Shown here one piece after another: positions 1,422 to 18,166 of a stretch of 23,946 nt of DNA; position 1 is the first letter of the stretch, and each line of letters opens with the position of its first letter. The notes below the pieces were generated by a model. That model was not told where the DNA came from and searched no databases. It saw nothing but the letters and a program-made list of their open reading frames with translations. This DNA comes from a virus (taxonomy: Duplodnaviria > Heunggongvirae > Uroviricota > Caudoviricetes), in the IMG/VR virus record IMGVR_UViG_2562617151_000005, one strand, 5' to 3'. Position numbers and translations under genes: made by a program.

Positions 1422-3893
1422 TTAAAAATCAGCCTGATTTGGGATCAGTTTTTGCCAGATAGCTGAAACGTATTTTGCCTGGTAACGGGCGTCATCAAGT
1501 GCATTATGGCGCTCACCTTCGAATGGAATAGCCGTTCTGGCATCGAAGTCTATGGCTTTCCCCAGCTCAACGATTGTGCGTACATCGCGATCGTTGTAGT
1601 AACGCCACGGGCAGGGGATCCCCTGCCGTTCGTATGAACGGCGCAAAATCGTGTTGTCGAAGTTGGCTCCATTTCCCCAAACCTGAACAAAAAATTCACC
1701 GGAGTTTTCGTCGATAAATTCCCGCAATTGTAACAGTGCATCATCTAACGGGATTTCATCGGTCATAATGGCAGATTGCGCTTCGCGTGATTGCTTAAGC
1801 CACCATTTAATGGTGTCCCGATCAATGACTCCGCCAGCAGTTTCCAGATCGATAGTCTTACTAAATTCCGGTCCCATATCTCCGGTTTGCGGATCGAAAA
1901 ATATTGCACCTATTGAGATGATCGGGGCATCAGGATTTTTTCCCATGGTTTCAAGGTCGATCATTAGATGGTCACACGTCCTGCTGGTGGATGTGATTTC
2001 TTGATGACCGTTCACCTTAATTGAGTGATCTGCCGTCTCGCCAGTTTCATTATCGCTATCGTGATGCTGATTGCCGCCAGTGTTCTCCTTGTGTGGATGT
2101 TCAGCGCCTTCCATTTCCTCCGGATCATCTTCCTGAACTTCAGGCTGATACTCTTCATCGAATGTTTCCTGGTATGTTGCGTCGCCCATTACCGCGCCAC
2201 AATCAGGGCAGTTGCCGCCGCCGGTCTGACCGCAGGCGGTGCAGACTTTTTCCACTTCCTGTTGCGCCACTGATTCAGGCTGTTTCGTTTCTGGCTCGTT
2301 TTGTAACGCATTTGGGCTGTTTTGTTCCGCTTTCTGGTCGTTCTGTTCCGTTTCTTGCTGGTTCTGGTTCACAGAATCGCGGGTCTGGTTCCCCTTAACC
2401 CATTTCGGATCATTCGGGTCGCTAATCCCTTCAACAAATTCACCACGTGATACTGCAAGCAGTTCATCGGCGTCAGGCTGGCTGATATTGGCTGCCTGCA
2501 TAATTTTGTTTACTTCGTCAGCGGTAACTTTTACTGACCCTGGTTGTGCGGTCGTGTCAGATGCACCAGTATTTTGTTGTGAACCTGAGTATGTACCGTT
2601 TTTGCGGGCGAAATATTCTTCTTTCGTGATTTCAGTAGCCCCAGCAGACAGCGCCTTATCCAGACCAGAAAGTTTGTTTGCGCGACCGTATTTTTCGCCA
2701 TCCTTGTCGGTGAAGAGGAAGTAGAACGGCCCCTCACGTTCTACAGATGGTTCGACTTCCACTTTGCATTCGGTTTTTTCGTTGTCCGGAATTGCCGTTT
2801 CCACTGCATCAGTTTCTGGTACTGGCGACGAGAGAGTATCAGTTGCGCTCTGATTTGTTCCTTCATCTTCAAACACGCCCTTTGTAGTCAGGTATTCAGT
2901 AATGTATTTGTTCAGTGCCACAGGGTCTTTGTGAATGTCGATCGGACGTTCACGGACAAGGCCAAAAATAGTCTGGCGGTCGTAGCGAAGGGCATCAGGC
3001 TGTTTGCGCATTGATGCCGAGATACGCTTCCAGTCTTCGCGGTCGTTGTCGATAACTTCATTTTTTGCCCAGCGATGGATGCTGCCGTCAATGTTTCCGG
3101 CATCCACATCACCAGGCCAGAGAGCGTAGGCCAGTTCGTCATCCAGTGTTTTCCATGTCTGCTTGTATTCGCGATGAATGGCAGCAATGACCGGGTTGAT
3201 TTTTCCTGTTGAATTTTCAGTGTGCTGTTGATTGGCTCTGGCGCGGGCGAGATCAACAACAGACGTGTATTTTCCGGCTTCCTTGCGTTCACCTTCGCGA
3301 CGTTTTTTCCAGATGCGCATCTCTGCCTGAATTTCGGGCCATTTGGCACCAGGCTTACATTTATGCTTAACCCACCCGATGGCATGCAGCTTAAGCTCCG
3401 GATACATGGCGTTAACTTCTGGCATTTTCATCAACGCTTCAACGATATGTCCGTCGAATGTTGCCATGTCTTCCTGCAACAGTTCCTGCGCGCTAATAAC
3501 CATATCAACGGTGATGTTTTCACATGTGTCGAACTTAACCATGACAGCGTTCTGTACTTCAGGGGCCAGCTTGTCAAAAGTGACGTTCATCGGATCGGAT
3601 TCAGTCTCAACCGGGACAAAGGAAGCAGACGCCTCATCCCAGCGGTTTTCCTGCATATATTCAGCATCCCAGGAATCTAGGGCAGGGCGGGGTATACCGG
3701 GTTTATCCTCGCAGACAAGAAATTTATAAGCGCAGTCCTGAGCAGCCGGATAATGTTCCAGGAATTGCCAGTGAAATTTTGCGCGGGCGCGACGTTCATC
3801 ACCGGCTTCAATGGCAGTGGCTACAGCGACTGCACCTTCTTCCTTTATTGCCTGTTCGTCCGGAATGGCGGCGCAAATAAAGACTTTACTCAT
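1422..3893 (-). CDS. Large early-left-operon protein with C-terminal DEDDh (DnaQ-like) 3'-5' exonuclease domain and central Cys4 zinc ribbon
   Basis: 823-aa ORF; C-terminal region shows Exo I (MIDLETMG), Exo II (VWGNGANFD) and Exo III (HNALDDARY) motifs; central CTACGQTGGGNCPDCG; acidic and Q/E-rich low-complexity linker. Confidence 0.8.
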   Translation of the reverse strand: MSKVFICAAIPDEQAIKEEGAVAVATAIEAGDERRARAKFHWQFLEHYPAAQDCAYKFLVCEDKPGIPRPALDSWDAEYMQENRWDEASASFVPVETESDPMNVTFDKLAPEVQNAVMVKFDTCENITVDMVISAQELLQEDMATFDGHIVEALMKMPEVNAMYPELKLHAIGWVKHKCKPGAKWPEIQAEMRIWKKRREGERKEAGKYTSVVDLARARANQQHTENSTGKINPVIAAIHREYKQTWKTLDDELAYALWPGDVDAGNIDGSIHRWAKNEVIDNDREDWKRISASMRKQPDALRYDRQTIFGLVRERPIDIHKDPVALNKYITEYLTTKGVFEDEGTNQSATDTLSSPVPETDAVETAIPDNEKTECKVEVEPSVEREGPFYFLFTDKDGEKYGRANKLSGLDKALSAGATEITKEEYFARKNGTYSGSQQNTGASDTTAQPGSVKVTADEVNKIMQAANISQPDADELLAVSRGEFVEGISDPNDPKWVKGNQTRDSVNQNQQETEQNDQKAEQNSPNALQNEPETKQPESVAQQEVEKVCTACGQTGGGNCPDCGAVMGDATYQETFDEEYQPEVQEDDPEEMEGAEHPHKENTGGNQHHDSDNETGETADHSIKVNGHQEITSTSRTCDHLMIDLETMGKNPDAPIISIGAIFFDPQTGDMGPEFSKTIDLETAGGVIDRDTIKWWLKQSREAQSAIMTDEIPLDDALLQLREFIDENSGEFFVQVWGNGANFDNTILRRSYERQGIPCPWRYYNDRDVRTIVELGKAIDFDARTAIPFEGERHNALDDARYQAKYVSAIWQKLIPNQADF

Positions 3894-4531: not shown

Positions 4532-4589
4532 AAAAAGGGCGGCAGAGCAGTCACGGAGTAAAACTGATACCGCCAAACGTCACCAGAAA
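4532..4589 (-). ncRNA. dicF: DicF small RNA (ftsZ-targeting) with intrinsic terminator
   Basis: Minus-strand sequence TTTCTGGTGACGTTTGGCGGTATCAGTTTTACTCCGTGACTGCTCTGCCGCCCTTTTT matches my recollection of DicF; GC stem plus U-run at the 3' end; directly upstream of dicB. Confidence 0.8.
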
Positions 4590-5199: not shown

Positions 5200-5572
5200 T
5201 TTTAATTGTTGTTTTGAAATAATCACTGCTTTCACATTTGAGTGATTTCATGGCAATCCAAATGCGGGCCTCTGTGCCTGCATTTGGTTCCAGTTGCTGT
5301 AGACGTTTTGCGTCTTCCAAAAGTAAGGCGATAATGTGTTTCAGCTTCTCATCATTTGCTTGATTCTTGTTTTCAGGCGAATTCTGTCCGCCGAATAGGC
5401 GCTTCTCTTCATACAGACCTATAAAGGCACGACGCACGTTACCGGATATAGTATCGATGGTTTCTTTTTCTACGGTACTCAGGTCAAGAGTCGCCAGTTG
5501 AGAGCGAACCACATTCGATGCCATTTCCAGGAATGGTACTGGTAAATCTTTAAATTCCATCGTCAACCTCAT
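5159..5572 (-). CDS. Hypothetical early-left-operon protein (137 aa; alternative start at 5560 gives MEFKDL...)
   Basis: ORF start overlaps the stop of the upstream ydfA-like gene by 1 nt (TGATG); no family recognised. Confidence 0.5.
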   Translation of the reverse strand: MRLTMEFKDLPVPFLEMASNVVRSQLATLDLSTVEKETIDTISGNVRRAFIGLYEEKRLFGGQNSPENKNQANDEKLKHIIALLLEDAKRLQQLEPNAGTEARIWIAMKSLKCESSDYFKTTIKTTQLSGELLKKLP

Positions 5573-5724
5573 CAGTCAGTGTTTCTGGTTAACCAGCGAC
5601 GCGCGCCAGCTTCAGTTTTAAACGTTTTGCTTCTGGTATACGTCATCGCGGTAAACGTGCCGTCCTGGTTGGGGAACACGCCACATACCAGAGATTCGTT
5701 GTTGCCAAGATTGAGCATATCCAT
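5572..5724 (-). CDS. ydfA: YdfA-like small protein (50 aa), first gene of the leftward operon
   Basis: Internal Met of the 77-aa track ORF gives MDMLNLGNNESLVCGVFPNQDGTFTAMTYT..., resembling K-12 YdfA from memory; sits just downstream (leftward) of OL-like palindromes. Confidence 0.65.
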   Translation of the reverse strand: MDMLNLGNNESLVCGVFPNQDGTFTAMTYTRSKTFKTEAGARRWLTRNTD

Positions 5725-5909
5725 GTTGACCTCATTTCCCCTTAACGCCGGGGTAGCGGAACAAAAACCTGCTGCATAGTTATTAAAGTTGAACCCTGCC
5801 GTCATGTTCTTACGCCTCGGGCTGGCTACTTAACCCCTGACCACTGCCTGGTAACTCGAAGTATTGCCCTGCATTCTGTGGGGCGGGGTGGGTTGGTATG
5901 AAAAGAAGG

Positions 5910-5947
5910 ATACCCATAGGTATTTAAAAAGTAAATACCCATGGGTA
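5910..5947. promoter_or_regulatory. OL-like operator pair: ATACCCATAGGTAT (5910-5923) and perfect palindrome TACCCATGGGTA (5936-5947)
   Basis: Two related palindromes about 25 bp apart in the gap between the repressor 3' end and the leftward operon. Confidence 0.5.
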
Positions 5948-5989
5948 AATTTTTGCGGTGTCTTAACTGGTGACTAGTTGTTTGGTGAG

Positions 5990-6409
5990 CTATGATGCGT
6001 TTTGTGCTTTCTTTTTACGGATTTCTTCGTAGATCATATTGTAATACTGTTTTTTCTCTTCAAGAGTTTTTAATAATTTATCCGCTTCACTTTCTGGCAG
6101 TTCGTCTAAGAGATCTAAAAAAATACGTTGTCGTGGCGTTAGAACCCTTGTTTCATAACTGGAGGCTGTGTTCGTTGATGATGAAACGATACCATCCATC
6201 CATCCCCGGGGTAACCCAAAGGACTCTTCGATAATCTCCACCATATCATCAGCGATCCGTTTTTTTCCCTTTTTCCCCTCTGGGTACAACATTCTTGATA
6301 CATAAGAAGGCTCGCGCCCGATCTTTCTGGCCACGTTAACCGCTTTACCATCGCATTTCTCATCACGAATTTTGATGAGTTGCTGTCGTCTAAATTCATA
6401 TTTGTCCAT
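5990..6409 (-). CDS. Prophage immunity repressor candidate (HTH, CI-position, no S24 peptidase domain recognised)
   Basis: 139 aa; HTH-like GKAVNVARKIGREPSYVSRML; divergent from the Cro-like gene; no SD upstream of the ATG, consistent with a leaderless PRM-type transcript as in lambda cI. Confidence 0.7.
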   Translation of the reverse strand: MDKYEFRRQQLIKIRDEKCDGKAVNVARKIGREPSYVSRMLYPEGKKGKKRIADDMVEIIEESFGLPRGWMDGIVSSSTNTASSYETRVLTPRQRIFLDLLDELPESEADKLLKTLEEKKQYYNMIYEEIRKKKAQNAS

Positions 6410-6446
6410 AGGTAAATAATAGATGCGATTACCGCAAGGTAAACAA

Positions 6447-6485
6447 CCTGTGGGTATTGACTTTTGTTTACCTGTGGGTATTCTT
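6447..6485. promoter_or_regulatory. OR/PR-like region: direct repeats CCTGTGGGTATT (6447-6458, 6471-6482) with TTGACT -35 (6457-6462) and TATTCT -10 (6479-6484)
   Basis: Repeats share the TGGGTA half-site with the OL palindromes; also inverted repeat GGTAAACAA/TTGTTTACC; located between divergent repressor and cro-like starts; SD AAGGAG before ATG 6510. Confidence 0.5.
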
Positions 6486-6509
6486 TGCTGTGTTTACTAA
6501 GGAGTAGCT

Positions 6510-6791
6510 ATGGAAGAATTAAGAATATTTCTCAATTCTCTTTCGTCAGATGAACAGCGTATGTTTGCATGCGAGTGTGGTACCAGCATCGGTTATCTAA
6601 GAAAGGCATTGAGTAAAGGTCAAGTGTTAGGGGCATCGTTATGTGTCCTTATTGAGCGAGCCAGTAATGGTGAAGTTACACGTCAGCAACTAAGGCCTTT
6701 TGATTGGATGAATATTTGGCCCGAGCTGGAAGATACCAAAACGTTAACACAACCACTTTCTAGGAGCTTGATTCATGAAAATCAAGCATGA
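6510..6791 (+). CDS. Cro-like HTH regulator (YdaS-like)
   Basis: 93 aa; position and orientation of cro; segment ERASNGEVTRQQLRP resembles the YdaS family as I recall it. Confidence 0.65.
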   Translation: MEELRIFLNSLSSDEQRMFACECGTSIGYLRKALSKGQVLGASLCVLIERASNGEVTRQQLRPFDWMNIWPELEDTKTLTQPLSRSLIHENQA

Positions 6792-7200
6792 ACACATCCG
6801 CATGGCGATGAATGTCTGGGCGCATCCGGACGGCGAAAAAGTGCCGGCTGCGAAAATTACCAAAGCGTATTTCGAGCTGGGAATGACGTTCCCGGAACTG
6901 TATGACGACAGCCATCCGGAAGCCCTGGCCCGTAATACCCAGAAAATTTTCCGTTGGCTGGATAAAGACACCCCTGATGCTGTTGAAAAAATGCAGGCTC
7001 TGTTACCGGCGATCGAAAAGGCGATGCCGCCTTTGCTGGTGGCCCGTATGCGCAGCCACAGTTCTGAATATTACCGTGAGATCGTCGAACGGAGGGATCG
7101 GCTGGTGAAGGATGTCGATGATTTTGTTGCGTCAGCGGTTGTTTTGTATGACCAGATGAATCGCGGCGGCCCGGCAGGGAATGCTGTGGTGATGCACTAA
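6775..7200 (+). CDS. YdaT-like protein (CII-position regulator)
   Basis: 141 aa beginning MKIKHEHI, which I recall as the YdaT N-terminus; overlaps the cro-like gene by 17 nt. Confidence 0.6.
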   Translation: MKIKHEHIRMAMNVWAHPDGEKVPAAKITKAYFELGMTFPELYDDSHPEALARNTQKIFRWLDKDTPDAVEKMQALLPAIEKAMPPLLVARMRSHSSEYYREIVERRDRLVKDVDDFVASAVVLYDQMNRGGPAGNAVVMH

Positions 7201-8182: not shown

Positions 8183-8326
8183 GTGTTAATTTCTGGTCAT
8201 GAGGTAATTTTCAGGAGGGCTTGTGGCAAAAGTTTTTACACAAGAAGAGCGGGAAAAAATTAAAGGGCAGGTTGTTGAACTCGTACGCCAGAGTGGGCGC
8301 GAGACGTTACGACAACTGGAAACTAA

Positions 8327-9522
<1,196 letters not shown>

Positions 9523-10036
9523 CTAATACTGGGGCAACAAGATATCTGATGAGCGTTCTGGCCAGAGAGCTGGTTGCCAGTGGCGATGTATACAACTCTG
9601 GTTACGGGTTATTCCCGTCTGAACAGGCGCGTAAGGACTGGCAAAATGCCCGTAAAAAGCTCTCAAGGGCAAAGCTGAAGAAACCATCTGCGGTTGATCC
9701 GGACCTTATCTGGTCATTACCTGACGGAGAAATACGTCGCTACGACAGGCGTCAGAACATAATCTGTCGCGAGTGCCGGAAGAGTGAAGTTATGCAGCGC
9801 ATATTGTCGTTTTATCAGGGTGATGTTCGGTATTTATTGAAGTGACGAGATTAAAGTGCATTAGTTCAGATGCAAATTGACATTTTGTGGCACAGGGTAG
9901 AGCTAGCGTGGTTGTCCGCTTTGTGCCAATAGCGGACATTGCTGGCTCATGGTATGTTAGTTTAAGGAGGCAGGTTATGCCCTGTATTTCGCTGTGGTAT
10001 AATAGTTGCGCAATTGATACAAGGGAGCGTTACATC

Positions 10037-10999
10037 GTGAAAATTGTTTTCGAGGTTAATGGAAAGAAAGTTCCACTAAAATCTTTAAAATACATAAGCA
10101 AAAAAGATCAACTCGAAGTAATGAAAAACTGGTTCTTTGAAAACTTTGAAGATCCGGCAAATGCTTGTCCGTATGAAAGTAGAGAAGGTGGCTATGCTTA
10201 CATATATGGCGGGCCGTATGATGCGAGCGAAGAACTACAATCCATCTTCGGTCAATATGTTAAATCTGAGTATATTGAGGAATTAGTAGATGAATTACAA
10301 ACACAATGTTTTGACTGGTCTGGAAACTCAAATAATATAGATGATTGGTACGATGATGATATCTACGACGCTGTAACGTCTTCCGGTAATCCGTATTTAA
10401 AATTCATTGATAATATCGATAAAATAAAAAAACTTGCAAAAGATAAAACTGAACAACAGCAAAAAAACCACTTGCTTAGTTTGCTCTACACGAATGTTAT
10501 TACAGCTTTGGAAACGCTTTATGTTGAGCTATTCATTAATTCTATAGAGAAAGATGATGTCTACATAGCCAATTGTATAGAAAAAGGTAAGACTGAATTT
10601 AAAGTAAGCAAAGATATTGCTGCGTTGCCTTTCAAGGGTGAACCCATCGAGAAAATTAGGGGAGAGCTAATCAGGTCAATCAAGGAACACTTGATCAGTG
10701 CAAGCTGGCATAGCACTAAAAAGGTAATCGACCGCTATGAAGCTACATTCGATATAAAAGTACAAAAAGACTGTCCGATAGAAGCTATTGAATTGGCAAC
10801 CCTCAATCGAAATCACTTAGTGCATCGTGGTGGAAAGGATAAAGAAGGGAACCTCGTAGTGATTACAGACCAGGATCTTGAAACGCTGATTGAAAATGCA
10901 TCGAACCTGGCAATTATGCTCTACAACAGTTTAAATGTAGCAACGAATAAAACCACCATTTTGCAACCAGATGACAAACCGTTCATTCATGAATTTTAA
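10037..10999 (+). CDS. Hypothetical protein A of AT-rich cassette (about 320 aa) with C-terminal HEPN-like Rx4H motif
   Basis: Long ORF; proposed GTG start at 10037 preceded by AGGGA; TTGACA at 9878-9883 upstream; motif LNRNHLVHRGG near C-terminus; markedly AT-rich by eye. Confidence 0.6.
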   Translation: MKIVFEVNGKKVPLKSLKYISKKDQLEVMKNWFFENFEDPANACPYESREGGYAYIYGGPYDASEELQSIFGQYVKSEYIEELVDELQTQCFDWSGNSNNIDDWYDDDIYDAVTSSGNPYLKFIDNIDKIKKLAKDKTEQQQKNHLLSLLYTNVITALETLYVELFINSIEKDDVYIANCIEKGKTEFKVSKDIAALPFKGEPIEKIRGELIRSIKEHLISASWHSTKKVIDRYEATFDIKVQKDCPIEAIELATLNRNHLVHRGGKDKEGNLVVITDQDLETLIENASNLAIMLYNSLNVATNKTTILQPDDKPFIHEF

Positions 11000-11014
11000 T
11001 AGCGCAGGTCATAC

Positions 11015-12016
11015 ATGGATATTCGCACACGAAAGACAAAATTTTTAGAGTCGTTAGATTCAACTGAAGTGATACGCAAAGCAGTAAGTCTCGCTATAGA
11101 TTGCATTATTGATAATCATAATAGTAATGAAGATACCCCCTTAGTTATTACCAGCTATGATGATCTCTGTAGAATCCAGGTGCTAAATTATGTACAGGAG
11201 TTTTGCGAAGCTGCATTCCCTGATATGGATGAATATTACTTTAGTCCTAACATACTTCGCATCAACGGCAAGACTAGTGAAGAAGCTTGTATTAACTTAA
11301 TTAAACTCTTAAGAAGTACAAAAGGCATGCTATTCTGGTCCGATGCCCCATCGTGGTTCGCTAGCCTCCCCGACGGATTATTCCATGTTGTTAACATTGA
11401 TCAAAAAATCGTTACTCGCGGCCTTAATAAGAAAAACTCTAAGCCGACAATAATCAATAAAGATTACAGTGTAGATACACTACTATCAGAGCTATTTTTG
11501 AATGGCGCACACATGGAGCAACCCAACGTACACAACGTTTCTGAGGGAAACATGAAGTTCTATGATGAATGCCATGCTGGATTAATCAGACCAATACCCG
11601 CTCCAATAGGCGCGTCATACGATGAAGAGATCACAATTAATTCTCCAGATTGGCAAAAGCTCGCGTGTGTAGCTTTACGCCGCTATCAGTCGAAGGAATG
11701 TCATGACGGAATGCAATGGGATACAACCGATCATGGTTGGACTGATGTAATCGCGTATCCATTCGTCGAAGAAATACAATCAATGGATAATAGTGGTTAT
11801 CGACAATGTTTAGTTGGGCTGGTCACAATAAACAATTCAAATGCAAATTCTCCGTACCTATCTACCGTTTGGATACATCTATTTTATCGCAGGAGAGGGT
11901 TATTAAGTAAGTTATGGCCAAAATTACAAGAGTTATATGGAAGTAACTTCGAAATTGAGCGACCTAATGAAAATATGAAAGCATTTCTGAAAAGTGCGAA
12001 ACACGCAGATTACTAA
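11015..12016 (+). CDS. Hypothetical protein B of AT-rich cassette (333 aa)
   Basis: ORF 15 nt downstream of gene A on the same strand; AT-rich; no Walker A or other recognisable motif. Confidence 0.6.
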   Translation: MDIRTRKTKFLESLDSTEVIRKAVSLAIDCIIDNHNSNEDTPLVITSYDDLCRIQVLNYVQEFCEAAFPDMDEYYFSPNILRINGKTSEEACINLIKLLRSTKGMLFWSDAPSWFASLPDGLFHVVNIDQKIVTRGLNKKNSKPTIINKDYSVDTLLSELFLNGAHMEQPNVHNVSEGNMKFYDECHAGLIRPIPAPIGASYDEEITINSPDWQKLACVALRRYQSKECHDGMQWDTTDHGWTDVIAYPFVEEIQSMDNSGYRQCLVGLVTINNSNANSPYLSTVWIHLFYRRRGLLSKLWPKLQELYGSNFEIERPNENMKAFLKSAKHADY

Positions 12017-12332
12017 TTTATGAATCAGTCTGTGGAGTTAGGGTTGGTGTGAACAAGTAGGGTAAGAGCCTCAACGTGATGCTATGCCGACCTGCTCCCT
12101 GAGAATTCACACAGAAGGCTGCTAGCAATGTCCGCAGATCGCTCAAAGCGGACTAGAAGGTTAGCTTGCGTCGGACTTGGCGTATTTAAAGAAGTGCTGG
12201 TGGTGACTGGTTGTTGTGTTCCATTTCTACAGAACAAAATCACAGAAACTATACCCAATAGTTATATTGAATCAATGATGAGACAGCCTCATATTTATCA
12301 GAACTGGTGTACGTCCAATACAGGAGGTTGTC

Positions 12333-12422
12333 GTGCTGGTTCTCAAATGTGCGCTAGCTATTGCGGCTGTAATGGCAATTTATTGTCTTGCTGTTGTTCT
12401 TACGGATCGCCTTTCTGATTGA
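12333..12422 (+). CDS. Candidate small hydrophobic peptide (29 aa, single predicted TM helix)
   Basis: SD AGGAGG at 12322-12327, 5 nt before GTG 12333; translation VLVLKCALAIAAVMAIYCLAVVLTDRLSD; not in the six-frame track because below the length cut-off. Confidence 0.3.
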   Translation: MLVLKCALAIAAVMAIYCLAVVLTDRLSD

Positions 12423-12476
12423 TTTTATATTGGCGAGGTGACGGGAGTTAAGTAGAATTGCTGCGGGTGCTTGAGG

Positions 12477-12512
12477 CTATCTGCCTCAGGCATGAACACC
12501 AAAGGCAGATAG
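12477..12512 (+). promoter_or_regulatory. Perfect 10-bp inverted repeat (CTATCTGCCT ... AGGCAGATAG, 16-nt loop) in the hok leader
   Basis: Seen directly; hok-family mRNAs are known to carry extensive leader structure. Confidence 0.4.
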
Positions 12513-12633
12513 AGAAAAGCCCCAGTTAACATTATGCGTCCTGCAAGACGTTTAACATTAATCTGAGGCTCAATCTATGAACGGCAAATCTAGGTTAGCC
12601 TCTTACGTGCCGAAAGGCAAGGAGAAGCAGGCT

Positions 12634-12789
12634 ATGAAGCAGCAAAAGGCGATGTTAATCGCCCTGATCGTCATCTGTTTAACCGTCATAATGACGGCAC
12701 TGGTAACGAGGAAAGACCTCTGCGAGGTACGAATCCGAACCGGCCAGACGGAGGTCGCTGTCTTCACAGCTTACGAACCTGAGGAGTAA
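12634..12789 (+). CDS. hok: Hok/Gef-family type I toxin (HokD/RelF-like)
   Basis: 51 aa MKQQKAMLIALIVICLTVIMTALVTRKDLCEVRIRTGQTEVAVFTAYEPEE; SD AAGGAG 9 nt upstream. Confidence 0.85.
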   Translation: MKQQKAMLIALIVICLTVIMTALVTRKDLCEVRIRTGQTEVAVFTAYEPEE

Positions 12790-12858
12790 GAGACCAGGCG
12801 GGGGAGAATCCCTCGCCACCTCTGATGTGTCAGGCATCCTCAACGCACCCGCACTTAA

Positions 12859-12884
12859 CCCGCTTCGGCGGGTTTTGTTTTTTC
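12859..12884 (+). terminator. Intrinsic terminator downstream of hok
   Basis: Hairpin CCCGC-TTCG-GCGGG followed by T-run TTTTGTTTTTT. Confidence 0.55.
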
Positions 12885-12955
12885 CTAGCATTCTGGTTTA
12901 CAATTCGCACACCAGCCTGAACAACTGGCACCTGCTGCGCCAGCAGAGACAACCG

Positions 12956-13234
12956 ATGGCGCACGATACCAAATTACACAATTCTGATGATTCTGCCGTC
13001 TTTGCCAGCAGGCACGGGCGGCGTTCCCGCACTTTCAAATCTGACTGGTTCCAGCATCCCCCATGCACTGAAGAACAGGCCGAGTGGCTAATTCAGTGCT
13101 ACCGCAGACACGGATACGAGATTAAGAAAGCCCTCAGCCTCGACTACCGTCACTGGATAATCTCCGTCAGGCTTCCTTACTCCGAACGCCCACCGCGTCC
13201 GTCCCGCACATTCCAGCAACGCATCTGGAGGTAA
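12956..13234 (+). CDS. Hypothetical protein (92 aa) between hok and the DUF968-like gene
   Basis: ORF from internal Met MAHDTKLHNSDD...; weak RBS; position corresponds to rem in Qin but homology not verified. Confidence 0.4.
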   Translation: MAHDTKLHNSDDSAVFASRHGRRSRTFKSDWFQHPPCTEEQAEWLIQCYRRHGYEIKKALSLDYRHWIISVRLPYSERPPRPSRTFQQRIWR

Positions 13235-13235
13235 C

Positions 13236-14291
13236 GTGCGGGTATTACTTCGACCTGTTCTGGTACCGGAACTCGGGCTGGTGATCGTTAAGCCGGGCCG
13301 TGAATCCATGCCGGTATTCCACAATACCCGGGTACTGGTGGAGCCGGAACCGAAAAGCATGCGTAATCTGCCGTCCGGGGTTGTTCCTGCCGTTCGCCAG
13401 CCGCTAGTGGAAGACAAAACATTGCTGCCGTTTTTCAGTAACGCACGGGTGATTCGTGCTGCTGGTGGTGCTGGTGCATTGTCTGACTGGCTGTTGCGCC
13501 ATATTAAATCCTGCCAGTGGCCACACGGCGATTATCATCACAGCGAAACCGTCATTCACCGTTATGGTACCGGCGCAATGGTGTTGTGCTGGCACTGCGA
13601 CAACCAGCTGCGTGACCAGACATCCGAATCACTCGAGCAACTTGCTCATCAAAACCTGTCAGCATGGATGATTGACGTCATCGGTCACGCAATAAGCGGT
13701 ACGCAGGAGCGTGAATTATCTTTGGCTGAATTATCCTGGTGGGCGGTCCGCAATCAGGTGGCGGACGCGCTACCGGAAGCGGTATTACGTCGTTCGCTGG
13801 GGTTGCGTGCGGAAAAAATCCGCTCAATGTACCGTGAAAGCGACATCGTACCGGGAGAGCAGACCGCCACCAGCATACTGAAGCAGCGCACAAAAAATCT
13901 TGCGCCGCTGCCTCACGCCCACCAGCAAAACCCGCCACAGGAAAAGACGGTGGTCAGCATTGCCGTTGATCCGGAGTCACCGGCTCAGTATCTCCAGCGC
14001 CAGAAATCACAACGGGAAGAGATGCCTGTATACACGCGCTGGGTAAAAACGCAGAAATGCATGACATGTGGCAATCAGGCAGATGATCCGCATCACATCA
14101 TTGGTCATGGACTGGGAGGGATGGGAACAAAGGCTGATGATTTGTTTGTTATTCCGCTGTGCCGTAAATGCCATAGCGAACTACACGCCGGGGTAAAAGA
14201 TTTTGAAGAAAAACACGGCAGCCAGCTGTTGTTGCTGATTCGTTTTTTAATGCACGCGAGAAATTCGGGTGTTTTGAAGTGGAAAGCATAA
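13236..14291 (+). CDS. DUF968-like nin-region protein with C-terminal HNH/zinc-binding motif (YdfU-like)
   Basis: 351 aa; GTG start after SD GGAGG; C-terminal CMTCGN...HHIIGHGLGG...CRKCHSELH. Confidence 0.7.
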   Translation: MRVLLRPVLVPELGLVIVKPGRESMPVFHNTRVLVEPEPKSMRNLPSGVVPAVRQPLVEDKTLLPFFSNARVIRAAGGAGALSDWLLRHIKSCQWPHGDYHHSETVIHRYGTGAMVLCWHCDNQLRDQTSESLEQLAHQNLSAWMIDVIGHAISGTQERELSLAELSWWAVRNQVADALPEAVLRRSLGLRAEKIRSMYRESDIVPGEQTATSILKQRTKNLAPLPHAHQQNPPQEKTVVSIAVDPESPAQYLQRQKSQREEMPVYTRWVKTQKCMTCGNQADDPHHIIGHGLGGMGTKADDLFVIPLCRKCHSELHAGVKDFEEKHGSQLLLLIRFLMHARNSGVLKWKA

Positions 14292-14672
14292 ATGACTGAA
14301 CGCATAGAATTTGTTTTGCCTTACCCGCCAACGGTGAACACTTACTGGCGTCGTCGTGGCAGCACATATTTTGTATCAAAAGCCGGGGAGCGTTATCGCC
14401 GGGCAGTGGCGCTTATTGTTCGCCAGCAGCGGCTGAAATTAAGCCTGTCCGGAAGGTTGGCAATAAAAATTATTGCAGAACCACCGGATAAGCGCCGCCG
14501 TGACCTGGACAATATTCTGAAAGCGCCGCTGGATGCGCTGACGCATGCGGGGTTGCTAATGGACGATGAGCAGTTTGATGAAATCAATATCGTTCGTGCT
14601 CAGCCAGTATCTGGTGGACGTCTGGGGGTGAAGATTTACCCCATAATGCTTGAAGGGCAGGTCAAAAAATGA
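14292..14672 (+). CDS. rusA: Holliday-junction resolvase RusA
   Basis: 126 aa; conserved RRRDLDN...KAPLDALT...DDEQ block matching RusA. Confidence 0.85.
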   Translation: MTERIEFVLPYPPTVNTYWRRRGSTYFVSKAGERYRRAVALIVRQQRLKLSLSGRLAIKIIAEPPDKRRRDLDNILKAPLDALTHAGLLMDDEQFDEINIVRAQPVSGGRLGVKIYPIMLEGQVKK

Positions 14673-15490
14673 AACTGGAAGATTTACCGAAATACTACTC
14701 CCCAAAATCCCCCGGCCTGACTGATGCATCGGCCTCAACGTCGAAAGATGCGCTGAGTATCACTGATGTGATGGCCGCGCAGGGCATGACACAGAATCGG
14801 GCTGAGATGGGGTTTTCTGCGTTCCTTGGGAAAATGGGCATTAGTATGAATGACAGAGAGCGGGCAACAGAATTGCTGACAGAATATGCACTCAGTCGGT
14901 GTGATCGCGTGGCGGCGTTAAGAAAACTCCCGGCAGAAATAAAACCGGTAGTGATGCGCATTATGGCTTCGTACGCTTTTGAGGATTATGCCCGCAGCGC
15001 AGCGAGTAAAAAGCAGTGCCCTTGTTGCTATGGGGAAAAATTTATTGAAAGCGTAGTTTTTACAAACAAGGTCCAGTATCCGGATGGTAAGCCGCCGGTA
15101 TGGGCAAAGTGTACGAAAGGTGTGTATCCGTCTTACTGGGAAGAATGGAAAAAAGTCAGGGAGGTGGTAAAAGTTGCCTGTCCGGAGTGTGGCGGAAAGG
15201 GTGAGGTTTCCACCGCCTGTAAGGATTGCCGTGGGCGTGGTGTCGCCATTCATCGTGAAGAGTCGGTAAAACGTGGTATGCCTGTTATCAGAGACTGCCA
15301 GCGTTGTGGTGGTCGTGGCTGTGAAAGACTACCATCAACGGAGGCATTTAATGCCATATGCAAAGTGACGAGTGCTATCACGCTTGATACGTGGAAAAAA
15401 TCAGTGAAACGCTTTTACGATACGTTGGTGGTTCGGTTTGACATTGAAGAGGCATGGGCGGAGCGGCAGTTAAAGAGGGTAACGCGATAG
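14669..15490 (+). CDS. Q: Late-gene antiterminator Q (lambda Q family, Cys4 zinc finger)
   Basis: 273 aa; N-terminus and central region align by eye with lambda Q (SPKSP, TDVMAA, ASYAFEDYARSAA); ATGA overlap with rusA stop. Confidence 0.85.
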   Translation: MKLEDLPKYYSPKSPGLTDASASTSKDALSITDVMAAQGMTQNRAEMGFSAFLGKMGISMNDRERATELLTEYALSRCDRVAALRKLPAEIKPVVMRIMASYAFEDYARSAASKKQCPCCYGEKFIESVVFTNKVQYPDGKPPVWAKCTKGVYPSYWEEWKKVREVVKVACPECGGKGEVSTACKDCRGRGVAIHREESVKRGMPVIRDCQRCGGRGCERLPSTEAFNAICKVTSAITLDTWKKSVKRFYDTLVVRFDIEEAWAERQLKRVTR

Positions 15491-15493
15491 TGT

Positions 15494-15523
15494 TGTTGAT
15501 TTTTCCCGAATCTGTGGTAAATT
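15494..15523 (+). promoter_or_regulatory. PR'-like late promoter with -10 TAAATT
   Basis: TGTTGA -35-like, then TAAATTTGCTCTAACGATGGG closely resembling lambda PR' -10 and initial transcribed region; directly downstream of Q. Confidence 0.5.
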
Positions 15524-15572
15524 TGCTCTAACGATGGGCGTTTTATGCCTGACGTTAGAAGATTTTTTACAC

Positions 15573-15596
15573 CCCGCCGCCTGGCGGGTTTTTTAT
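15573..15596 (+). terminator. tR'-like intrinsic terminator (Q-antiterminated)
   Basis: CCCGCC-GCCT-GGCGGG followed by TTTTTTAT, about 60 nt downstream of the PR'-like promoter. Confidence 0.6.
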
Positions 15597-15716
15597 GACT
15601 GAAATCGCGTCAGTACAGTAAACGCGCTGGTGGCGGTGAATACCTGTCTTTCAGCTTGCTGGCTTTTTCGACAAGAGTTATTGGTGTGTCACGTTAACCG
15701 GAAAAGGGAAAAAGAC

Positions 15717-15914
15717 ATGCTAAAACAGCAGGATATGACAGAAACCGCCAGAGTAGTGTTTAATGAATTAAGCGTTACCGAACCGGCGACAGTCGGGGAG
15801 ATTGCACAGAATACTTACCTTTCACGCGAACGCTGCCAGTTAATACTGACCCAGCTGGTTATGGCGGGTCTGGCAGACTATCAGTTCGGTTGTTACAGAC
15901 GCCTTCCGCAGTGA
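15717..15914 (+). CDS. Hypothetical small protein (65 aa)
   Basis: ORF from internal Met MLKQQDMTETARV...; purine-rich region upstream; followed by terminator. Confidence 0.4.
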   Translation: MLKQQDMTETARVVFNELSVTEPATVGEIAQNTYLSRERCQLILTQLVMAGLADYQFGCYRRLPQ

Positions 15915-15925
15915 AGGCTTTTTTA
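15901..15925 (+). terminator. Intrinsic terminator overlapping the stop of the small ORF
   Basis: GCCTTC-CGCAGT-GAAGGC followed by TTTTTTAT. Confidence 0.55.
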
Positions 15926-15943
15926 TTTGTGGTAAATGGGCGG

Positions 15944-15970
15944 CTGGTGGGTGTTAGGGGCACCCACCAG
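15944..15970. promoter_or_regulatory. Perfect 10-bp inverted repeat CTGGTGGGTG-N7-CACCCACCAG upstream of the methyltransferase
   Basis: Seen directly; no T-run follows, so more likely a binding site or RNA structure than a terminator. Confidence 0.35.
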
Positions 15971-16064
15971 CCATCTGCTCATGCGTTGGGTTCACAAGCA
16001 AACCTCAGGCCCACTGCTTTGCGCAAAAGCAGAATGAGCCTATCAGAGACAGGCTTAATGATCC

Positions 16065-17114
16065 ATGCTTAATACTGTAAAAATATCCAGTTGTGAGTTA
16101 ATCAACGCCGACTGCCTGGAATTTATCCGGTCGTTACCCGAAAATTCTGTTGACCTGATAGTCACGGACCCGCCGTACTTTAAAGTGAAGCCTGAGGGCT
16201 GGGATAACCAGTGGAAGGGCGACGATGATTACCTGAAGTGGCTGGACCAGTGTCTGGCGCAGTTCTGGCGGGTGCTGAAACCTGCCGGAAGTCTTTACCT
16301 GTTCTGTGGTCATCGCCTGGCATCTGATATCGAAATCATGATGCGTGAACGCTTCAGTGTGCTGAACCATATTATCTGGGCGAAGCCGTCCGGACGCTGG
16401 AACGGATGCAACAAGGAAAGCCTGCGGGCGTATTTCCCCGCCACAGAGCGCATTCTGTTCGCGGAACATTATCAGGGGCCGTATCGTCCGAAAGATGCCG
16501 GGTATGCGGCGAAGGGCAGTGCACTGAAACAGCATGTGATGGCCCCGCTGATTTCTTACTTTCGTGATGCGCGCGCGGCCCTGGGGATAACGGCAAAACA
16601 GATTGCAGATGCCACAGGAAAGAAAAACATGGTGTCGCACTGGTTCAGTGCCAGTCAGTGGCAGCTACCGAACGAAAGCGATTATCTGAAATTACAGTCG
16701 CTGTTTGCCCGGGTGGCAGAAGAGAAACATCAGCGCGGTGAACTGGAAAAGCCCCACCACCAGCTGGTGGATACGTATACGTCACTGAACCGGCAGTATG
16801 TGGAGCTGCAGAGTGAATATAAGCATCTGCGGCGGTATTTTGGTGTGACGGCGCAGGTGCCGTACACGGATGTGTGGACACATAAACCGGTGCAGTTCTA
16901 TCCCGGGAAACATCCGTGCGAAAAACCGGCAGAAATGCTGCAGCAGATAATCAGCGCAAGCAGTCGTCCGGGTGACCTGGTTGCAGATTTTTTTATGGGC
17001 TCAGGTTCAACGGTAAAAGCGGCACTGGCGCTCGGGCGTCGTGCGATTGGCGTTGAACTGGAGACCGGACGTTTTGAGCAGACAGTCAGGGAAGTTCAGG
17101 ATTTAATCGTTTGA
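16065..17114 (+). CDS. Orphan DNA N6-adenine (or N4-cytosine) methyltransferase, beta-class
   Basis: 349 aa; catalytic DPPY (VTDPPYF) near N-terminus and SAM-binding FxGxG (DFFMGSGST) near C-terminus; no adjacent endonuclease gene. Confidence 0.85.
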   Translation: MLNTVKISSCELINADCLEFIRSLPENSVDLIVTDPPYFKVKPEGWDNQWKGDDDYLKWLDQCLAQFWRVLKPAGSLYLFCGHRLASDIEIMMRERFSVLNHIIWAKPSGRWNGCNKESLRAYFPATERILFAEHYQGPYRPKDAGYAAKGSALKQHVMAPLISYFRDARAALGITAKQIADATGKKNMVSHWFSASQWQLPNESDYLKLQSLFARVAEEKHQRGELEKPHHQLVDTYTSLNRQYVELQSEYKHLRRYFGVTAQVPYTDVWTHKPVQFYPGKHPCEKPAEMLQQIISASSRPGDLVADFFMGSGSTVKAALALGRRAIGVELETGRFEQTVREVQDLIV

Positions 17115-17163: not shown

Positions 17164-17239
17164 GGCCCTTTAGCTCAGTGGTGAGAGCGAGCGACTCATA
17201 ATCGCCAGGTCGCTGGTTCAAATCCAGCAAGGGCCACCA
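17164..17239 (+). tRNA. tRNA with CAU anticodon, Ile2-like (ileX/ileZ type) rather than Met
   Basis: Hand-folded cloverleaf: acceptor GGCCCTT/AAGGGCC, D-stem GCTC/GAGC, anticodon loop CTCATAA, T-loop TTCAAAT, encoded CCA; resembles E. coli ileX from memory. Confidence 0.8.
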
Positions 17240-17246
17240 TCACATA

Positions 17247-17323
17247 CCGCCATTAGCTCATCAGGAAAGAGCGCCAGCCTTCGAAGCTGGTTGCGCGGAG
17301 TTCGGGTCCCCGAAGGCGGTCCA
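17247..17323 (+). tRNA. tRNA-Arg (UCG) with atypical T-arm
   Basis: Hand-fold: acceptor CCGCCAT/AAGGCGG (one A-A mismatch), D-stem GCTC/GAGC, anticodon stem CCAGC/GCTGG, loop CTTCGAA, T-loop TTCGGGT with one T-stem mismatch, encoded CCA. Confidence 0.55.
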
Positions 17324-17336
17324 TTATCTGTATCCT

Positions 17337-17413
17337 GCGTTGTTAGCTCAGCCGGACAGAGCAATTGCCTTCTAAGCAATCGGTCACTGGTTCGAATCCA
17401 GTACAACGCGCCA
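17337..17413 (+). tRNA. tRNA-Arg (UCU)
   Basis: Acceptor GCGTTGT/ACAACGC, D-stem GCTC/GAGC, anticodon loop CTTCTAA, T-loop TTCGAAT, encoded CCA. Confidence 0.85.
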
Positions 17414-17458: not shown

Positions 17459-17672
17459 CTCACAATTCAGGCGGTTGACTGTTGTCTGGTTTGCGGGGAG
17501 TTTGTTAAAAGAAACTGGCATGGTGAATCCCCCTGTGCGGAGGGGCAATCAGCGAGTAGGTATATGGGATAATCGCGGATTCAGGTGCTGGTACTGAATT
17601 CACCGGGAGGCACCCGGCACCATGCAATGGCACATAGCGCCACTCTCCAGCCCCTCTCCGGAGGGGCTTTTC
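17459..17672 (+). other. Structured module A (about 215 bp), candidate sRNA or regulatory leader ending in an intrinsic terminator
   Basis: Shares blocks with module B: CTCACAATTCAG, TTGAC, TTTGTTAAAA, CATGGTGAATCCCCCTGNGCGGAGGGGC, CACCGGGAGGCACCCGGCACCATG, and terminator GCCCCTC-TCCG-GAGGGGC plus T-run. Confidence 0.4.
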
Positions 17673-18160: not shown

Positions 18161-18166
18161 ATGGAC

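What the first reader, a model, noticed from the sequence alone, without database searches (positions are those of the whole stretch)
5910..6485. Immunity region with leaderless repressor gene and two operator sets sharing a TGGGTA half-site
The repressor ORF has no SD before its ATG, as for lambda cI transcribed from PRM. Palindromes containing TACCCA/TGGGTA occur at the left (5910-5947) and direct repeats CCTGTGGGTATT overlap the -35 and -10 of a rightward promoter (6447-6485). This defines a specific, testable operator motif for the immunity group.
Basis: seen in the sequence. Interest (0 to 1): 0.45.

Follow-up and report, generated by a model that had tools for sequence, protein, structure and literature searches.

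The report
Prophage repressor switch and its operators
This is the on/off control region of a lambda-like (Qin-type) prophage of E. coli. A small repressor gene with no ribosome-binding leader is flanked by two sets of a 12-bp palindrome, TACC-N4-GGTA, and the same layout recurs in dozens of distant bacteria, so the design is ordinary but its operator sequence is newly defined.

Summary
The 139-aa repressor ORF (5990-6409, minus strand) has no Shine-Dalgarno sequence. TACCCA/TGGGTA palindromes lie at 5911-5922 and 5936-5947. An exact 13-bp direct repeat lies at 6446-6458 and 6470-6482, over a TTGACT-16-TATTCT promoter.

- The conserved operator is TACC-N4-GGTA with a variable, mostly YRYR centre, not a TGGGTA half-site.
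- OR has three sites.
- The left pair is OL, over a leftward promoter (TTTACT-17-TATCCT) that drives a dicBF-like operon.

**Comparative evidence.**
- In 38 of 46 related loci, from Enterobacterales to Neisseria, Burkholderiales and Xanthomonas, the motif sits at about -72, -47 and -32 from the repressor ATG. In 23 loci it recurs as an exact pair elsewhere (25-26 bp apart downstream of the repressor where inspected).
- It is absent where the recognition helix differs, and in phage Tritos, which carries a swapped immunity module.
- A -10 hexamer ends 6-7 nt before the ATG in 31 of 46 loci, which supports leaderless expression.

**Closest characterised relatives** are lambda cI/Cro, CP-933P PaaR2/YdaS/YdaT and Qin DicA/DicC.

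**Verdict:** a new member of a known kind, of moderate interest. Binding, transcription start sites and any terminator role of the left hairpin remain untested.

The parts
5907..5912 (-). Predicted PL -10 hexamer, TATCCT. Its first two bases are the last two of OL1.
   Evidence: Read from the sequence. The same placement (site...GG-TAnnnT) is seen in related loci. The match to consensus is too weak for the promoter scan to list it.
5911..5922 (.). OL1 operator, TACCCATAGGTA (promoter-proximal site of PL).
5930..5935 (-). Predicted PL -35 hexamer, TTTACT. It directly abuts OL2 and lies 17 bp from the -10.
   Evidence: Read from the sequence. The family-wide pattern is site-TTGACx.
5936..5947 (.). 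OL2 operator, TACCCATGGGTA, a perfect palindrome 25 bp from OL1.
5901..5947 (-). 16-bp hairpin formed by OL2 and OL1 plus TTTA/TAAA flanks, followed by UCCUUCUUUU. A possible intrinsic terminator of the repressor transcript, 42 nt after the stop codon.
   Evidence: Terminator scan. RNA fold about -22 to -23 kcal/mol, z-score -4.9. Not conserved in the Salmonella relative L048.
5990..6409 (-). Repressor gene, 139 aa. The N-terminal HTH domain (about residues 1-75) has the recognition helix PSYVSRM. A disordered linker covers residues 77-87. The C-terminal domain is a two-helix DicA-like unit.
6416..6421 (-). Predicted PRM -10 hexamer, TATTAT. It ends 6 nt before the A of the ATG, so +1 falls on that A (6409).
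   Evidence: A -10-like hexamer ends 6-7 nt before the ATG in 31 of 46 loci.
6430..6441 (.). OR3 operator, TACCGCAAGGTA. It overlaps the PRM -35 (TTTACC, 6438-6443 on the minus strand).
6445..6456 (.). OR2 operator, AACCTGTGGGTA, an imperfect site. It lies between the two -35 hexamers, with its centre about -41.5 from the PRM start and about -40.5 from the PR start.
   Evidence: The one-base deviation (GGTT on the repressor strand) recurs in most related loci.
6457..6484 (+). PR promoter, TTGACT-16-TATTCT, for the cro-like gene.
6469..6480 (.). OR1 operator, TACCTGTGGGTA. It overlaps the spacer and the first 2 bp of the PR -10.
6510..6791 (+). Cro-like (YdaS-like) gene, 93 aa, with Shine-Dalgarno AAGGAG at 6499-6504.
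   Evidence: 73% identical to mEp043 Cro. A homologue lies divergent from the repressor in 34 of 45 related loci.
6768..6785 (.). Exact YdaT operator, TTGATT-N6-AATCAA, at the cro-like/ydaT-like gene junction. This is the likely site of a P_RE-type establishment promoter.
   Evidence: Motif and position match O_M of CP-933P (PMC9986795).
6775..7200 (+). YdaT-like (CII-equivalent) gene, 141 aa.
   Evidence: PF06254 at 40.9 bits against a cutoff of 21. phrog_163, CII-like activator.

Best explanation
Window 5900-6800 is the immunity (lysis/lysogeny switch) module of a Qin/Rac-like lambdoid prophage.

**Repressor binding (inferred).** The 139-aa repressor probably binds as a dimer, through an N-terminal helix-turn-helix domain, to 12-bp dyads of the form TACC-N4-GGTA.

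**Right operator, three sites.**
- OR1 overlaps the -10 of PR.
- OR2 abuts the -35 of PR, so filling OR1 and OR2 shuts off the cro-like, ydaT-like and replication genes.
- OR2 is centred about -41.5 from the repressor promoter PRM. That is the position from which lambda CI activates its own promoter, so positive autoregulation is plausible.
- OR3 covers the PRM -35, which would give negative autoregulation at high repressor levels.

**Repressor expression.** PRM (TTTACC-16-TATTAT) should start transcription on the A of the ATG, so the repressor mRNA is leaderless.

**Left operator, two sites.** OL2 and OL1 bracket the -35 and -10 of a leftward promoter PL, in the same way as at PR. They keep the dicBF-like early-left operon silent (ydfA-like gene, DicF and other genes as far as the RecE-like exonuclease).

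**Cro-like protein.** It co-occurs with these sites across the family and presumably binds the same dyads in the opposite order of preference.

**Induction.** The repressor has a short DicA-like helical C-terminal domain and no S24 self-cleavage domain, so induction is probably not by RecA-stimulated cleavage.

**What is shown and what is inferred.** Shown here: the sequence features, their statistical excess, their conservation, and their co-variation with the protein. Inferred: binding, transcription starts, activation or repression at each site, and cooperativity or looping.
For: **In the window**
- The motif is confined to the two regulatory regions: 4 exact sites against 0.16 expected.
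- PR and PRM are the only two sigma-70-like hits in 5500-6900, and they sit exactly on the sites.

**Across the family**
- 46 loci (235 kb) hold 122 exact TACC-N4-GGTA sites against 3.6 expected. Of these, 63 lie in the 65-bp zone upstream of the repressor ATG and 46 are members of exact pairs elsewhere, spaced 25-26 bp downstream of the repressor where printed.
- Offsets of about -72/-73, -47/-48 and -32/-33 from the ATG are kept from E. coli to Neisseria, Burkholderiales and Xanthomonas.
- The N4 centre varies freely (YRYR in 76 of 140 exact sites), while the arms TACC and GGTA are kept at the same offsets in 38 of 46 loci.
- The OL pairs carry TTGACx directly after the first site, and a TAnnnT hexamer starts in the last 2 bp of the second site.

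**Protein-DNA co-variation**
- Loci whose recognition helix is not SYVSRM(L) have no sites (L023, L040, L044, L045, L046). The DicA region of K-12 Qin also has no exact site.
- Phage Tritos shares the flanks and the repressor C-terminal part, but has a different N-terminal domain, different repeats and no TACC-N4-GGTA.
- The mEp043 cI N-terminal domain is 65% identical with an identical recognition helix, mEp043 Cro is 73% identical, and mEp043 has the same OR and OL sites.

**Leaderless expression**
- A -10-like hexamer ends 6-7 nt before the ATG in 31 of 46 loci. The -35 TTTACC lies inside OR3 with a 16-17 bp spacer.
- No functional Shine-Dalgarno sequence was evident on inspecting the upstream sequences, except in L035.
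- A leaderless repressor was shown by 5' RACE for the analogous CP-933P paaR2 (PMC8630535).

**Fold**
- The AlphaFold2 model (pLDDT 85) gives a five-helix HTH N-terminal domain. It resembles phage repressors and C proteins, with the SPC32H Rep as best hit.

**Left operon**
- A DicF RNA and a ydfA-like gene lie downstream of PL.
Against: - There is no experimental binding, footprint or transcription-start data for this module. The literature searches found none.
- PL is a weak consensus match (8 of 12), below the promoter scan's threshold, and was not reported by it.
- The conserved arms are only 8 bp apart centre to centre (9 bp if the flanking T/A is counted). That is short for a classical HTH dimer, so the real contacts may extend into the flanks.
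- OR2 and OR3 are only 15 bp apart centre to centre, so both may not be occupied at once.
- Pfam does not recognise the N-terminal domain as an HTH, and the structural matches are weak (best E = 1.2e-3).
- The left pair also scores as a terminator-like hairpin, so part of its conservation in this lineage could serve RNA rather than protein binding.
Confidence: 0.85

Rival explanations
1. The left inverted repeat (5911-5947) is primarily the intrinsic terminator of the repressor gene rather than an operator. Its resemblance to the right-hand repeats would then be secondary.
For: - It lies 42 nt after the stop codon.
- It forms a 16-bp stem with a 5-nt loop followed by UCCUUCUUUU.
- The fold is about -22 to -23 kcal/mol with z-score -4.9; 0 of 200 shuffles fold as well.
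- No other terminator lies between the repressor gene and the toxic dicBF-like operon.
Against: - The two arms are each a TACC-N4-GGTA dyad, with the same spacing and the same -35/-10 placement as at PR.
- The same pair occurs downstream of the repressor operon in 23 other loci, at distances of 460-2500 bp. Many of these have a 13-14 nt loop and no U-tract, and some have a separate GC-rich terminator (mEp043, L022, L043).
- The closest non-E. coli relative (Salmonella L048) keeps the pair but has neither the stem extension nor the U-tract.
- A dual role (operator DNA and terminator RNA) in this lineage is not excluded. I put that at about 0.3.
Confidence: 0.08
2. The dyads are bound only by the Cro-like (YdaS-like) protein or by another factor. 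The 139-aa protein would then recognise something else.
For: - The Cro-like gene co-occurs with the sites in 34 of 45 loci, so co-variation alone cannot fully separate the two proteins.
- In CP-933P, the footprints of PaaR2 and YdaS overlap.
Against: - Sites are present in loci where tblastn found no Cro homologue but the repressor N-terminal domain is kept (for example L006-L011).
- Sites disappear exactly where the repressor recognition helix changes.
- The site offsets are fixed relative to the repressor ATG and its promoter.
- In every characterised lambdoid switch, the repressor and Cro share operators (established knowledge; PMC8630535).
Confidence: 0.05
3. The repeats are chance or non-functional repeated DNA.
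For: None beyond the short length of the motif.
Against: - 0 of 100 shuffles reach the observed count in the window.
- There is a 34-fold excess across 46 loci, with positional conservation across proteobacterial classes while the centre and the flanks diverge.
Confidence: 0.01

Closest known systems
Bacteriophage lambda cI / cro with OR1-3, OL, PR, PRM and PL
   Same: - Divergent repressor and cro genes.
- A tripartite OR.
- The predicted PR and PRM starts are about 82 bp apart.
- OR1 and OR2 are 24 bp apart, and OR2 is centred about -42 from PRM.
- A leaderless repressor mRNA is predicted.
- A second operator set lies over a leftward early promoter.
   Different: - The operator is a 12-bp TACC-N4-GGTA rather than a 17-bp site.
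- OR3 is only 15 bp from OR2.
- OL has two sites in the window.
- OL lies about 535 bp from OR, not 2.3 kb.
- The repressor lacks the S24 self-cleavage domain, although relatives such as mEp043 cI have one that matches the lambda cI C-terminal domain at E = 7e-30.
- There is no N/nut system; the left operon is dicBF-like.
CP-933P immunity region of E. coli O157:H7: PaaR2 / YdaS / YdaT (PMC8630535, PMC9986795)
   Same: - A short, non-cleavable repressor divergent from ydaS-ydaT-type genes across an intergenic region of about 100 bp.
- A leaderless repressor mRNA, shown there by 5' RACE.
- OR-like and OL-like sites, and a PL whose design copies PR.
- A YdaT operator, TTGATT-N6-AATCAA, at the ydaS/ydaT junction. 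It is present as an exact match here at 6768-6785.
   Different: - The repressor sequence differs (PaaR2 starts MQKKE), and so does the operator sequence (18-bp repeats with consensus GTTTAGTAA).
- No paaA2-parE2 toxin-antitoxin genes follow the repressor here.
- The window's Cro-like protein scores below the Pfam YdaS cutoff (25.8 against 30 bits).
Qin prophage DicA / DicC / dicBp of E. coli K-12 (bioRxiv 10.1101/2023.04.14.536235)
   Same: - The same gene order: cro-like gene, then repressor, promoter, ydfA-ydfB-ydfC-DicF-dicB.
- A repressor of about 135-139 aa without an S24 domain.
- The C-terminal 46 residues are 33% identical to DicA.
- A DicF RNA is present.
   Different: - The N-terminal DNA-binding domain is unrelated by sequence.
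- The Qin region has no exact TACC-N4-GGTA site.
- The NCBIfam DicA model is matched only over the C-terminal part and far below its cutoff (24.5 against 101 bits).
- No Rem-like antirepressor was found among the ten largest ORFs of 9357-17114.
Phage mEp043 cI / Cro (GenBank PV340537, NC_019706)
   Same: - The repressor N-terminal domain is 65% identical, with an identical recognition helix.
- Cro is 73% identical.
- The three OR sites and the OL pair are the same, with the same promoter placement.
- It probably has the same operator specificity.
   Different: - mEp043 cI is 228 aa with an S24 (LexA-like) C-terminal domain.
- A separate GC-rich terminator precedes OL.
- The left operon starts with N.
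- It has a lambda-type CII rather than YdaT.
- I found no published operator analysis for mEp043.
Salmonella phage SPC32H Rep, the repressor of the Rep-Ant pair (PDB 5D50, 5D4Z)
   Same: It is the best structural match to the model. It is also a short HTH repressor that is inactivated by an antirepressor rather than by cleavage.
   Different: The similarity is weak (E = 1.2e-3, TM 0.47, 24% identity over 87 columns), and no sequence-level relationship was detected.

Membership tests
Lambdoid CI/Cro immunity switch | Divergently transcribed repressor and cro-like genes, separated by a short intergenic region that holds back-to-back promoters. | tested here: met
   Repressor 5990-6409 (minus strand) and cro-like gene 6510-6791 (plus strand), with a 100-bp gap. 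PR and PRM are the only promoter-like hits in 5500-6900.
Lambdoid CI/Cro immunity switch | Repeated dyad-symmetric operators that overlap PR and PRM (OR), with a second set over a leftward early promoter (OL). | tested here: met
   Three OR dyads and two OL dyads. The excess over chance and the family-wide positional conservation support them.
Lambdoid CI/Cro immunity switch | The repressor protein binds those operators and represses PR and PL. | not testable with these tools
   Only indirect support is available: the sites co-vary with the recognition helix and with the module swap.
Lambdoid CI/Cro immunity switch | Leaderless repressor mRNA from the maintenance promoter (as for lambda cI and paaR2). 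| tested here: inconclusive
   The geometry predicts +1 on the A of the ATG, there is no Shine-Dalgarno sequence, and the arrangement is conserved in 31 of 46 loci. No transcription-start data exist.
Lambda-CI-type (LexA-like) cleavable repressors | A C-terminal S24 peptidase domain (PF00717) with a self-cleavage site. | tested here: not met
   The 139-aa protein has no Pfam hit. Its C-terminal domain is two helices. Homologues with the same N-terminal domain do carry PF00717.
DicA subfamily (NCBIfam NF007257) | A full-length match above the curated cutoff. | tested here: not met
   24.5 bits against a cutoff of 101. Only residues 86-136 align. BLASTP to K-12 DicA gives 33% identity over 46 C-terminal residues.
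YdaS/YdaT (Rac and CP-933P type) early-right genes | A YdaT-family protein downstream of the cro-like gene. | tested here: met
   PF06254 at 40.9 bits against a cutoff of 21.
YdaS/YdaT (Rac and CP-933P type) early-right genes | A YdaT operator, TTGATT-N6-AATCAA, at the end of the cro-like gene. | tested here: met
   A single exact match in the window, at 6768-6785. The position is as described in PMC9986795.
YdaS/YdaT (Rac and CP-933P type) early-right genes | The cro-like protein belongs to Pfam YdaS_toxin (PF15943). | tested here: not met
   25.8 bits, below the cutoff of 30, and only a partial alignment. It matches phrog_35 and mEp043 Cro instead.
mEp043-type immunity module (defined here) | An N-terminal domain with MDKYE...REPSYVSRMLYPEGK.GKKRIADDM...LPRGWMD, together with TACC-N4-GGTA sites at about -72, -47 and -32 from the ATG. 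| tested here: met

The most novel reading that the evidence does not exclude
One repressor-DNA recognition code (helix SYVSRML with dyad TACC-N4-GGTA) may be kept almost unchanged in prophages of gamma- and beta-proteobacteria.

- It would be combined modularly with either an SOS-cleavable S24 domain or a short DicA-like domain.
- The 'immunity group' would then be unusually broad. The probably defective prophage module, found in about 15% of complete E. coli genomes (822 of 5426), could give cross-immunity against mEp043-like phages.
- In this lineage, the OL operator pair would also serve, as RNA, as the terminator of the repressor transcript.
Probability: 0.35. Interest if true: 0.55.

Novelty: new member of a known kind. 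Interest (0 to 1): 0.36.

Why it matters
**Annotation.** The result gives a concrete, testable operator (TACC-N4-GGTA), a promoter map, and a three-plus-two site layout. The module is present in about 15% of complete E. coli genomes, including O157:H7 and O145, where it is annotated only as 'hypothetical protein / transcriptional regulator'.

**What it controls.** The module governs a dicBF-like operon that holds cell-division inhibitors (DicF in the window; DicB is annotated in identical-module relatives).

**Evolution.** It shows that immunity specificity (N-terminal domain, Cro and operators) travels as one unit, apart from the induction-sensing C-terminal domain.

**Wider prediction.** The deep conservation of the site predicts cross-immunity among otherwise unrelated prophages.

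**Limits.** The design itself is textbook lambda biology, so this does not open a new kind of mechanism.

Tried and rejected
- **Pfam and NCBIfam on the repressor.** There was no usable family assignment: no Pfam hit, and a sub-threshold DicA match over the C-terminal tail only.
- **PDB sequence search with the family profile.** It matched only the S24 domains of the long homologues and found nothing for the N-terminal domain.
- **Foldseek against PDB.** It gave only weak matches to HTH repressors and C proteins.
- **Rfam.** No known RNA lies in 5700-6520. The one hit, a miRNA family at E = 0.019, is just the hairpin.
- **Conserved PL leader (5800-5902).** I tested it for unusual structure and found none (z-score -0.08).
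- **Literature searches.** Searches for mEp043, for the motif strings and for DicA/DicC in O157 found no description of this operator.
- **Megablast against sequenced phages.** It found only the flanks, not the module.
- **Antirepressor gene.** I looked among the ten largest ORFs of 9357-17114 and found none. The rest of the window was not scanned.
- **Terminator-only reading of the left pair.** Rejected, because relatives keep the pair without the terminator features.
- **TGGGTA as the half-site.** Rejected, because only TACC and GGTA are kept at the conserved positions across the family.

Full report
**What is in the sequence**

The window is a lambdoid prophage of the Qin/Rac type. Its parts, in order, are:
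- a RecE-like exonuclease gene (1422-3893, minus strand);
- a DicF RNA (4537-4588, minus strand);
- a DUF1391/ydfA-like gene (5572-5805, minus strand);
- a 139-aa ORF (5990-6409, minus strand);
- a divergent 93-aa Cro/YdaS-like gene (6510-6791);
- a YdaT/CII-like gene (6775-7200);
- a replication-organiser gene;
- an IS5 element.

- TACCCATAGGTA lies at 5911-5922 and TACCCATGGGTA at 5936-5947.
- An exact 13-bp direct repeat, ACCTGTGGGTATT, lies at 6446-6458 and 6470-6482.
- The promoter scan finds only two sigma-70-like sites in 5500-6900. One is TTGACT-16-TATTCT on the plus strand (6457-6484). The other is TTTACC-16-TATTAT on the minus strand (6443-6416).
- The repressor ATG is preceded by ...CTATTATTTACCT and has no Shine-Dalgarno sequence. 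The cro-like gene has AAGGAG 5 nt before its ATG.

**The unit and its statistics**

The common element is a 12-bp dyad, TACC-N4-GGTA.
- Exact copies occur four times in the 23.9-kb window: 5911, 5936, 6430 and 6469. The expectation is 0.16, and 0 of 100 shuffles reached 4.
- A fifth copy with one mismatch, AACCTGTGGGTA, lies at 6445.
- The right region therefore has three sites, not two. The extra site (6430-6441) lies over the -35 of the leftward repressor promoter.

**Comparative evidence**

*Homologues of the repressor.*
- The 139-aa protein has no Pfam domain. It belongs to PHROG 5736.
- Its first roughly 75 residues (MDKYE...REPSYVSRMLYPEGKKGKKRIADDM...LPRGWMD) are highly conserved in hundreds of proteins.
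- That domain is fused either to a short helical tail (135-140 aa; E. coli, Salmonella, Serratia, Yersinia) or to an S24/LexA-type domain (221-242 aa). Phage mEp043 cI is of the second kind, 65% identical over residues 1-86.
- mEp043 Cro is 73% identical to the window's 93-aa protein.

*Position of the sites.* A scan of one genome per species returned 44 loci. Together with mEp043 and the window, this gives 46 loci.
- 38 of the 46 loci have an exact dyad in the 65-bp zone upstream of the repressor ATG.
- The dyads sit at nearly fixed offsets of -72/-73, -47/-48 and -32/-33. In the window the offsets are -71, -47 and -32.
- The hosts range from Enterobacterales and Aeromonas to Neisseria, Burkholderiales and Xanthomonas.
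- 23 loci also have an exact pair elsewhere; the pairs printed lie 25-26 bp apart, 460-2500 bp downstream of the ATG.
- In total there are 122 exact sites in 235 kb against 3.6 expected.
- The centre N4 is variable, and is YRYR in 76 of 140 exact sites. The flanking base prefers T on the TACC side and A on the GGTA side. TACC and GGTA are the part that stays fixed at these offsets across the family.

*Protein-DNA co-variation.*
- The five loci whose recognition helix departs from SYVSRM(L) have no site: L023, L040, L044, L045 and L046.
- The K-12 Qin dicA region has no exact site.
- Phage Tritos is a natural module swap. It shares the left flank (window 5593-5893, 94%), the right flank from 6763 (86%) and the 3' part of the repressor gene (5991-6106, 75%). 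It has a different N-terminal domain, different repeats and no TACC-N4-GGTA.
- The Salmonella relative L048 (repressor 85% identical) changes the centres of the sites but keeps TACC and GGTA in four of five sites.

**Promoter anatomy**

*Right side.*
- OR2 abuts the PR -35, and the last two bases of OR1 begin the PR -10.
- The PRM -35 (TTTACC) is part of OR3.
- The PRM -10 ends 6 nt before the ATG, so the expected start is the A of the ATG.
- Across the family, a -10-like hexamer ends 6-7 nt before the ATG in 31 of 46 loci, with a 16-17 bp spacer from TTTACC. On inspecting the upstream sequences, only L035 has a credible Shine-Dalgarno sequence.
- A leaderless repressor has been shown experimentally for the analogous paaR2 of CP-933P and is known for lambda cI (PMC8630535).
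- With these starts, OR2 is centred about -41.5 from PRM and about -40.5 from PR, and the two starts are about 82 bp apart. That matches the lambda geometry as I know it.

*Left side.*
- Read on the minus strand, the order is OL2, TTTACT, 17 bp, TATCCT, with OL1 overlapping the -10.
- Relatives show the same design with better hexamers, for example GGTA-TTGACA and GG-TATATT.
- This is therefore PL, equivalent to dicBp of Qin (bioRxiv 10.1101/2023.04.14.536235).

**The hairpin**

- Because both left sites are near-palindromes, the minus-strand RNA can form a 16-bp stem with a 5-nt loop, followed by UCCUUCUUUU.
- The fold is about -22 to -23 kcal/mol with z-score -4.9. It lies 42 nt after the repressor stop codon, with no other terminator before PL.
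- This may terminate the PRM transcript, but the stem extension and the U-tract are absent in Salmonella L048 and in most other loci. I therefore treat it as a possible lineage-specific second use and not as the primary function.

**The protein**

- AlphaFold2 (pLDDT 85) gives a five-helix N-terminal domain with helices at 23-30 and 34-40 (PSYVSRM), a disordered linker at 77-87, and two C-terminal helices at 92-103 and 106-138.
- Foldseek's best PDB matches are the SPC32H Rep repressor, restriction-modification C proteins, HigA, the TP901-1 CI N-terminal domain and the lambda repressor N-terminal domain. All are weak.
- The tail is 33% identical to the DicA tail.
- There is no S24 domain, so RecA-stimulated cleavage is unlikely. 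DicA is relieved by the antirepressor Rem.
- I found no antirepressor among the ten largest ORFs of 9357-17114.

**Distribution and novelty**

- The module (5880-6520) is present at 80% identity or more in 822 of 5426 complete E. coli genomes, at 99% or more in 690 of them, and is annotated only generically.
- Sequenced phages share only its flanks.
- I found no paper that describes this operator.
- The architecture is that of lambda, CP-933P and Qin. What is new is the specific operator, the three-plus-two site map, and the breadth over which the recognition helix and site are conserved.

**Verdict**

This is a new member of a known kind, of moderate interest. Binding, transcription starts, autoregulation and termination all remain to be tested.

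Noticed in passing
window 6768-6785: An exact copy of the published YdaT operator, TTGATT-N6-AATCAA. It spans the end of the cro-like gene and the ATG of the ydaT-like gene, the same position as O_M of CP-933P. It suggests a YdaT-controlled P_RE-type promoter for establishing repressor synthesis.
   Followed up: partly
window 4537-4588 (minus strand): A DicF antisense RNA (Rfam RF00039, 76.7 bits). The operator-controlled leftward operon is therefore dicBF-like and probably toxic when derepressed.
   Followed up: partly
window 8190-9400: An IS5-type transposase gene (8395-9375) sits where relatives (L001) carry the DnaC-like ATP-binding replication gene. Only a 43-aa ORF (8223-8354) lies between the O-like gene and IS5. 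The prophage is probably replication-defective.
   Followed up: no
L054 (phage Tritos) 1294-2887, against window 5593-7189: A natural immunity-module swap. The flanks and the 3' third of the repressor gene are shared (75-94% identity). The N-terminal domain, the cro gene and the operators are replaced, with AAAGTAC-type repeats instead. One recombination joint lies inside the repressor gene, near window 6106.
   Followed up: yes
L002 (mEp043) about 3545-3575; also L003, L012, L014, L018, L021, about 45 nt upstream of OL2: A conserved inverted repeat, TTACCTG-N10-CAGGTAA, which is TACC...GGTA with a wide spacer. It could be a third, atypical OL site or an RNA hairpin. It is absent from the window.
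   Followed up: no
window 5800-5903 (minus strand): A GC-rich leader downstream of the predicted PL start. It is 95-99% conserved in phages with different immunity modules. Its predicted fold is no better than that of shuffled sequence.
   Followed up: partly
window 6139-6399 (minus strand, alternative frame): Database proteins P0010 and P0019 are frameshift chimeras that begin in this alternative frame and join the repressor frame. Some genomes therefore carry a frameshifted repressor gene.
   Followed up: no
window 12465-12639, 17164-17410, 17489-18166, 23522-23720: Other Rfam hits: a sok antitoxin RNA (hok/sok), three tRNA genes, two STnc100 sRNA copies and an IS009 RNA.
   Followed up: no
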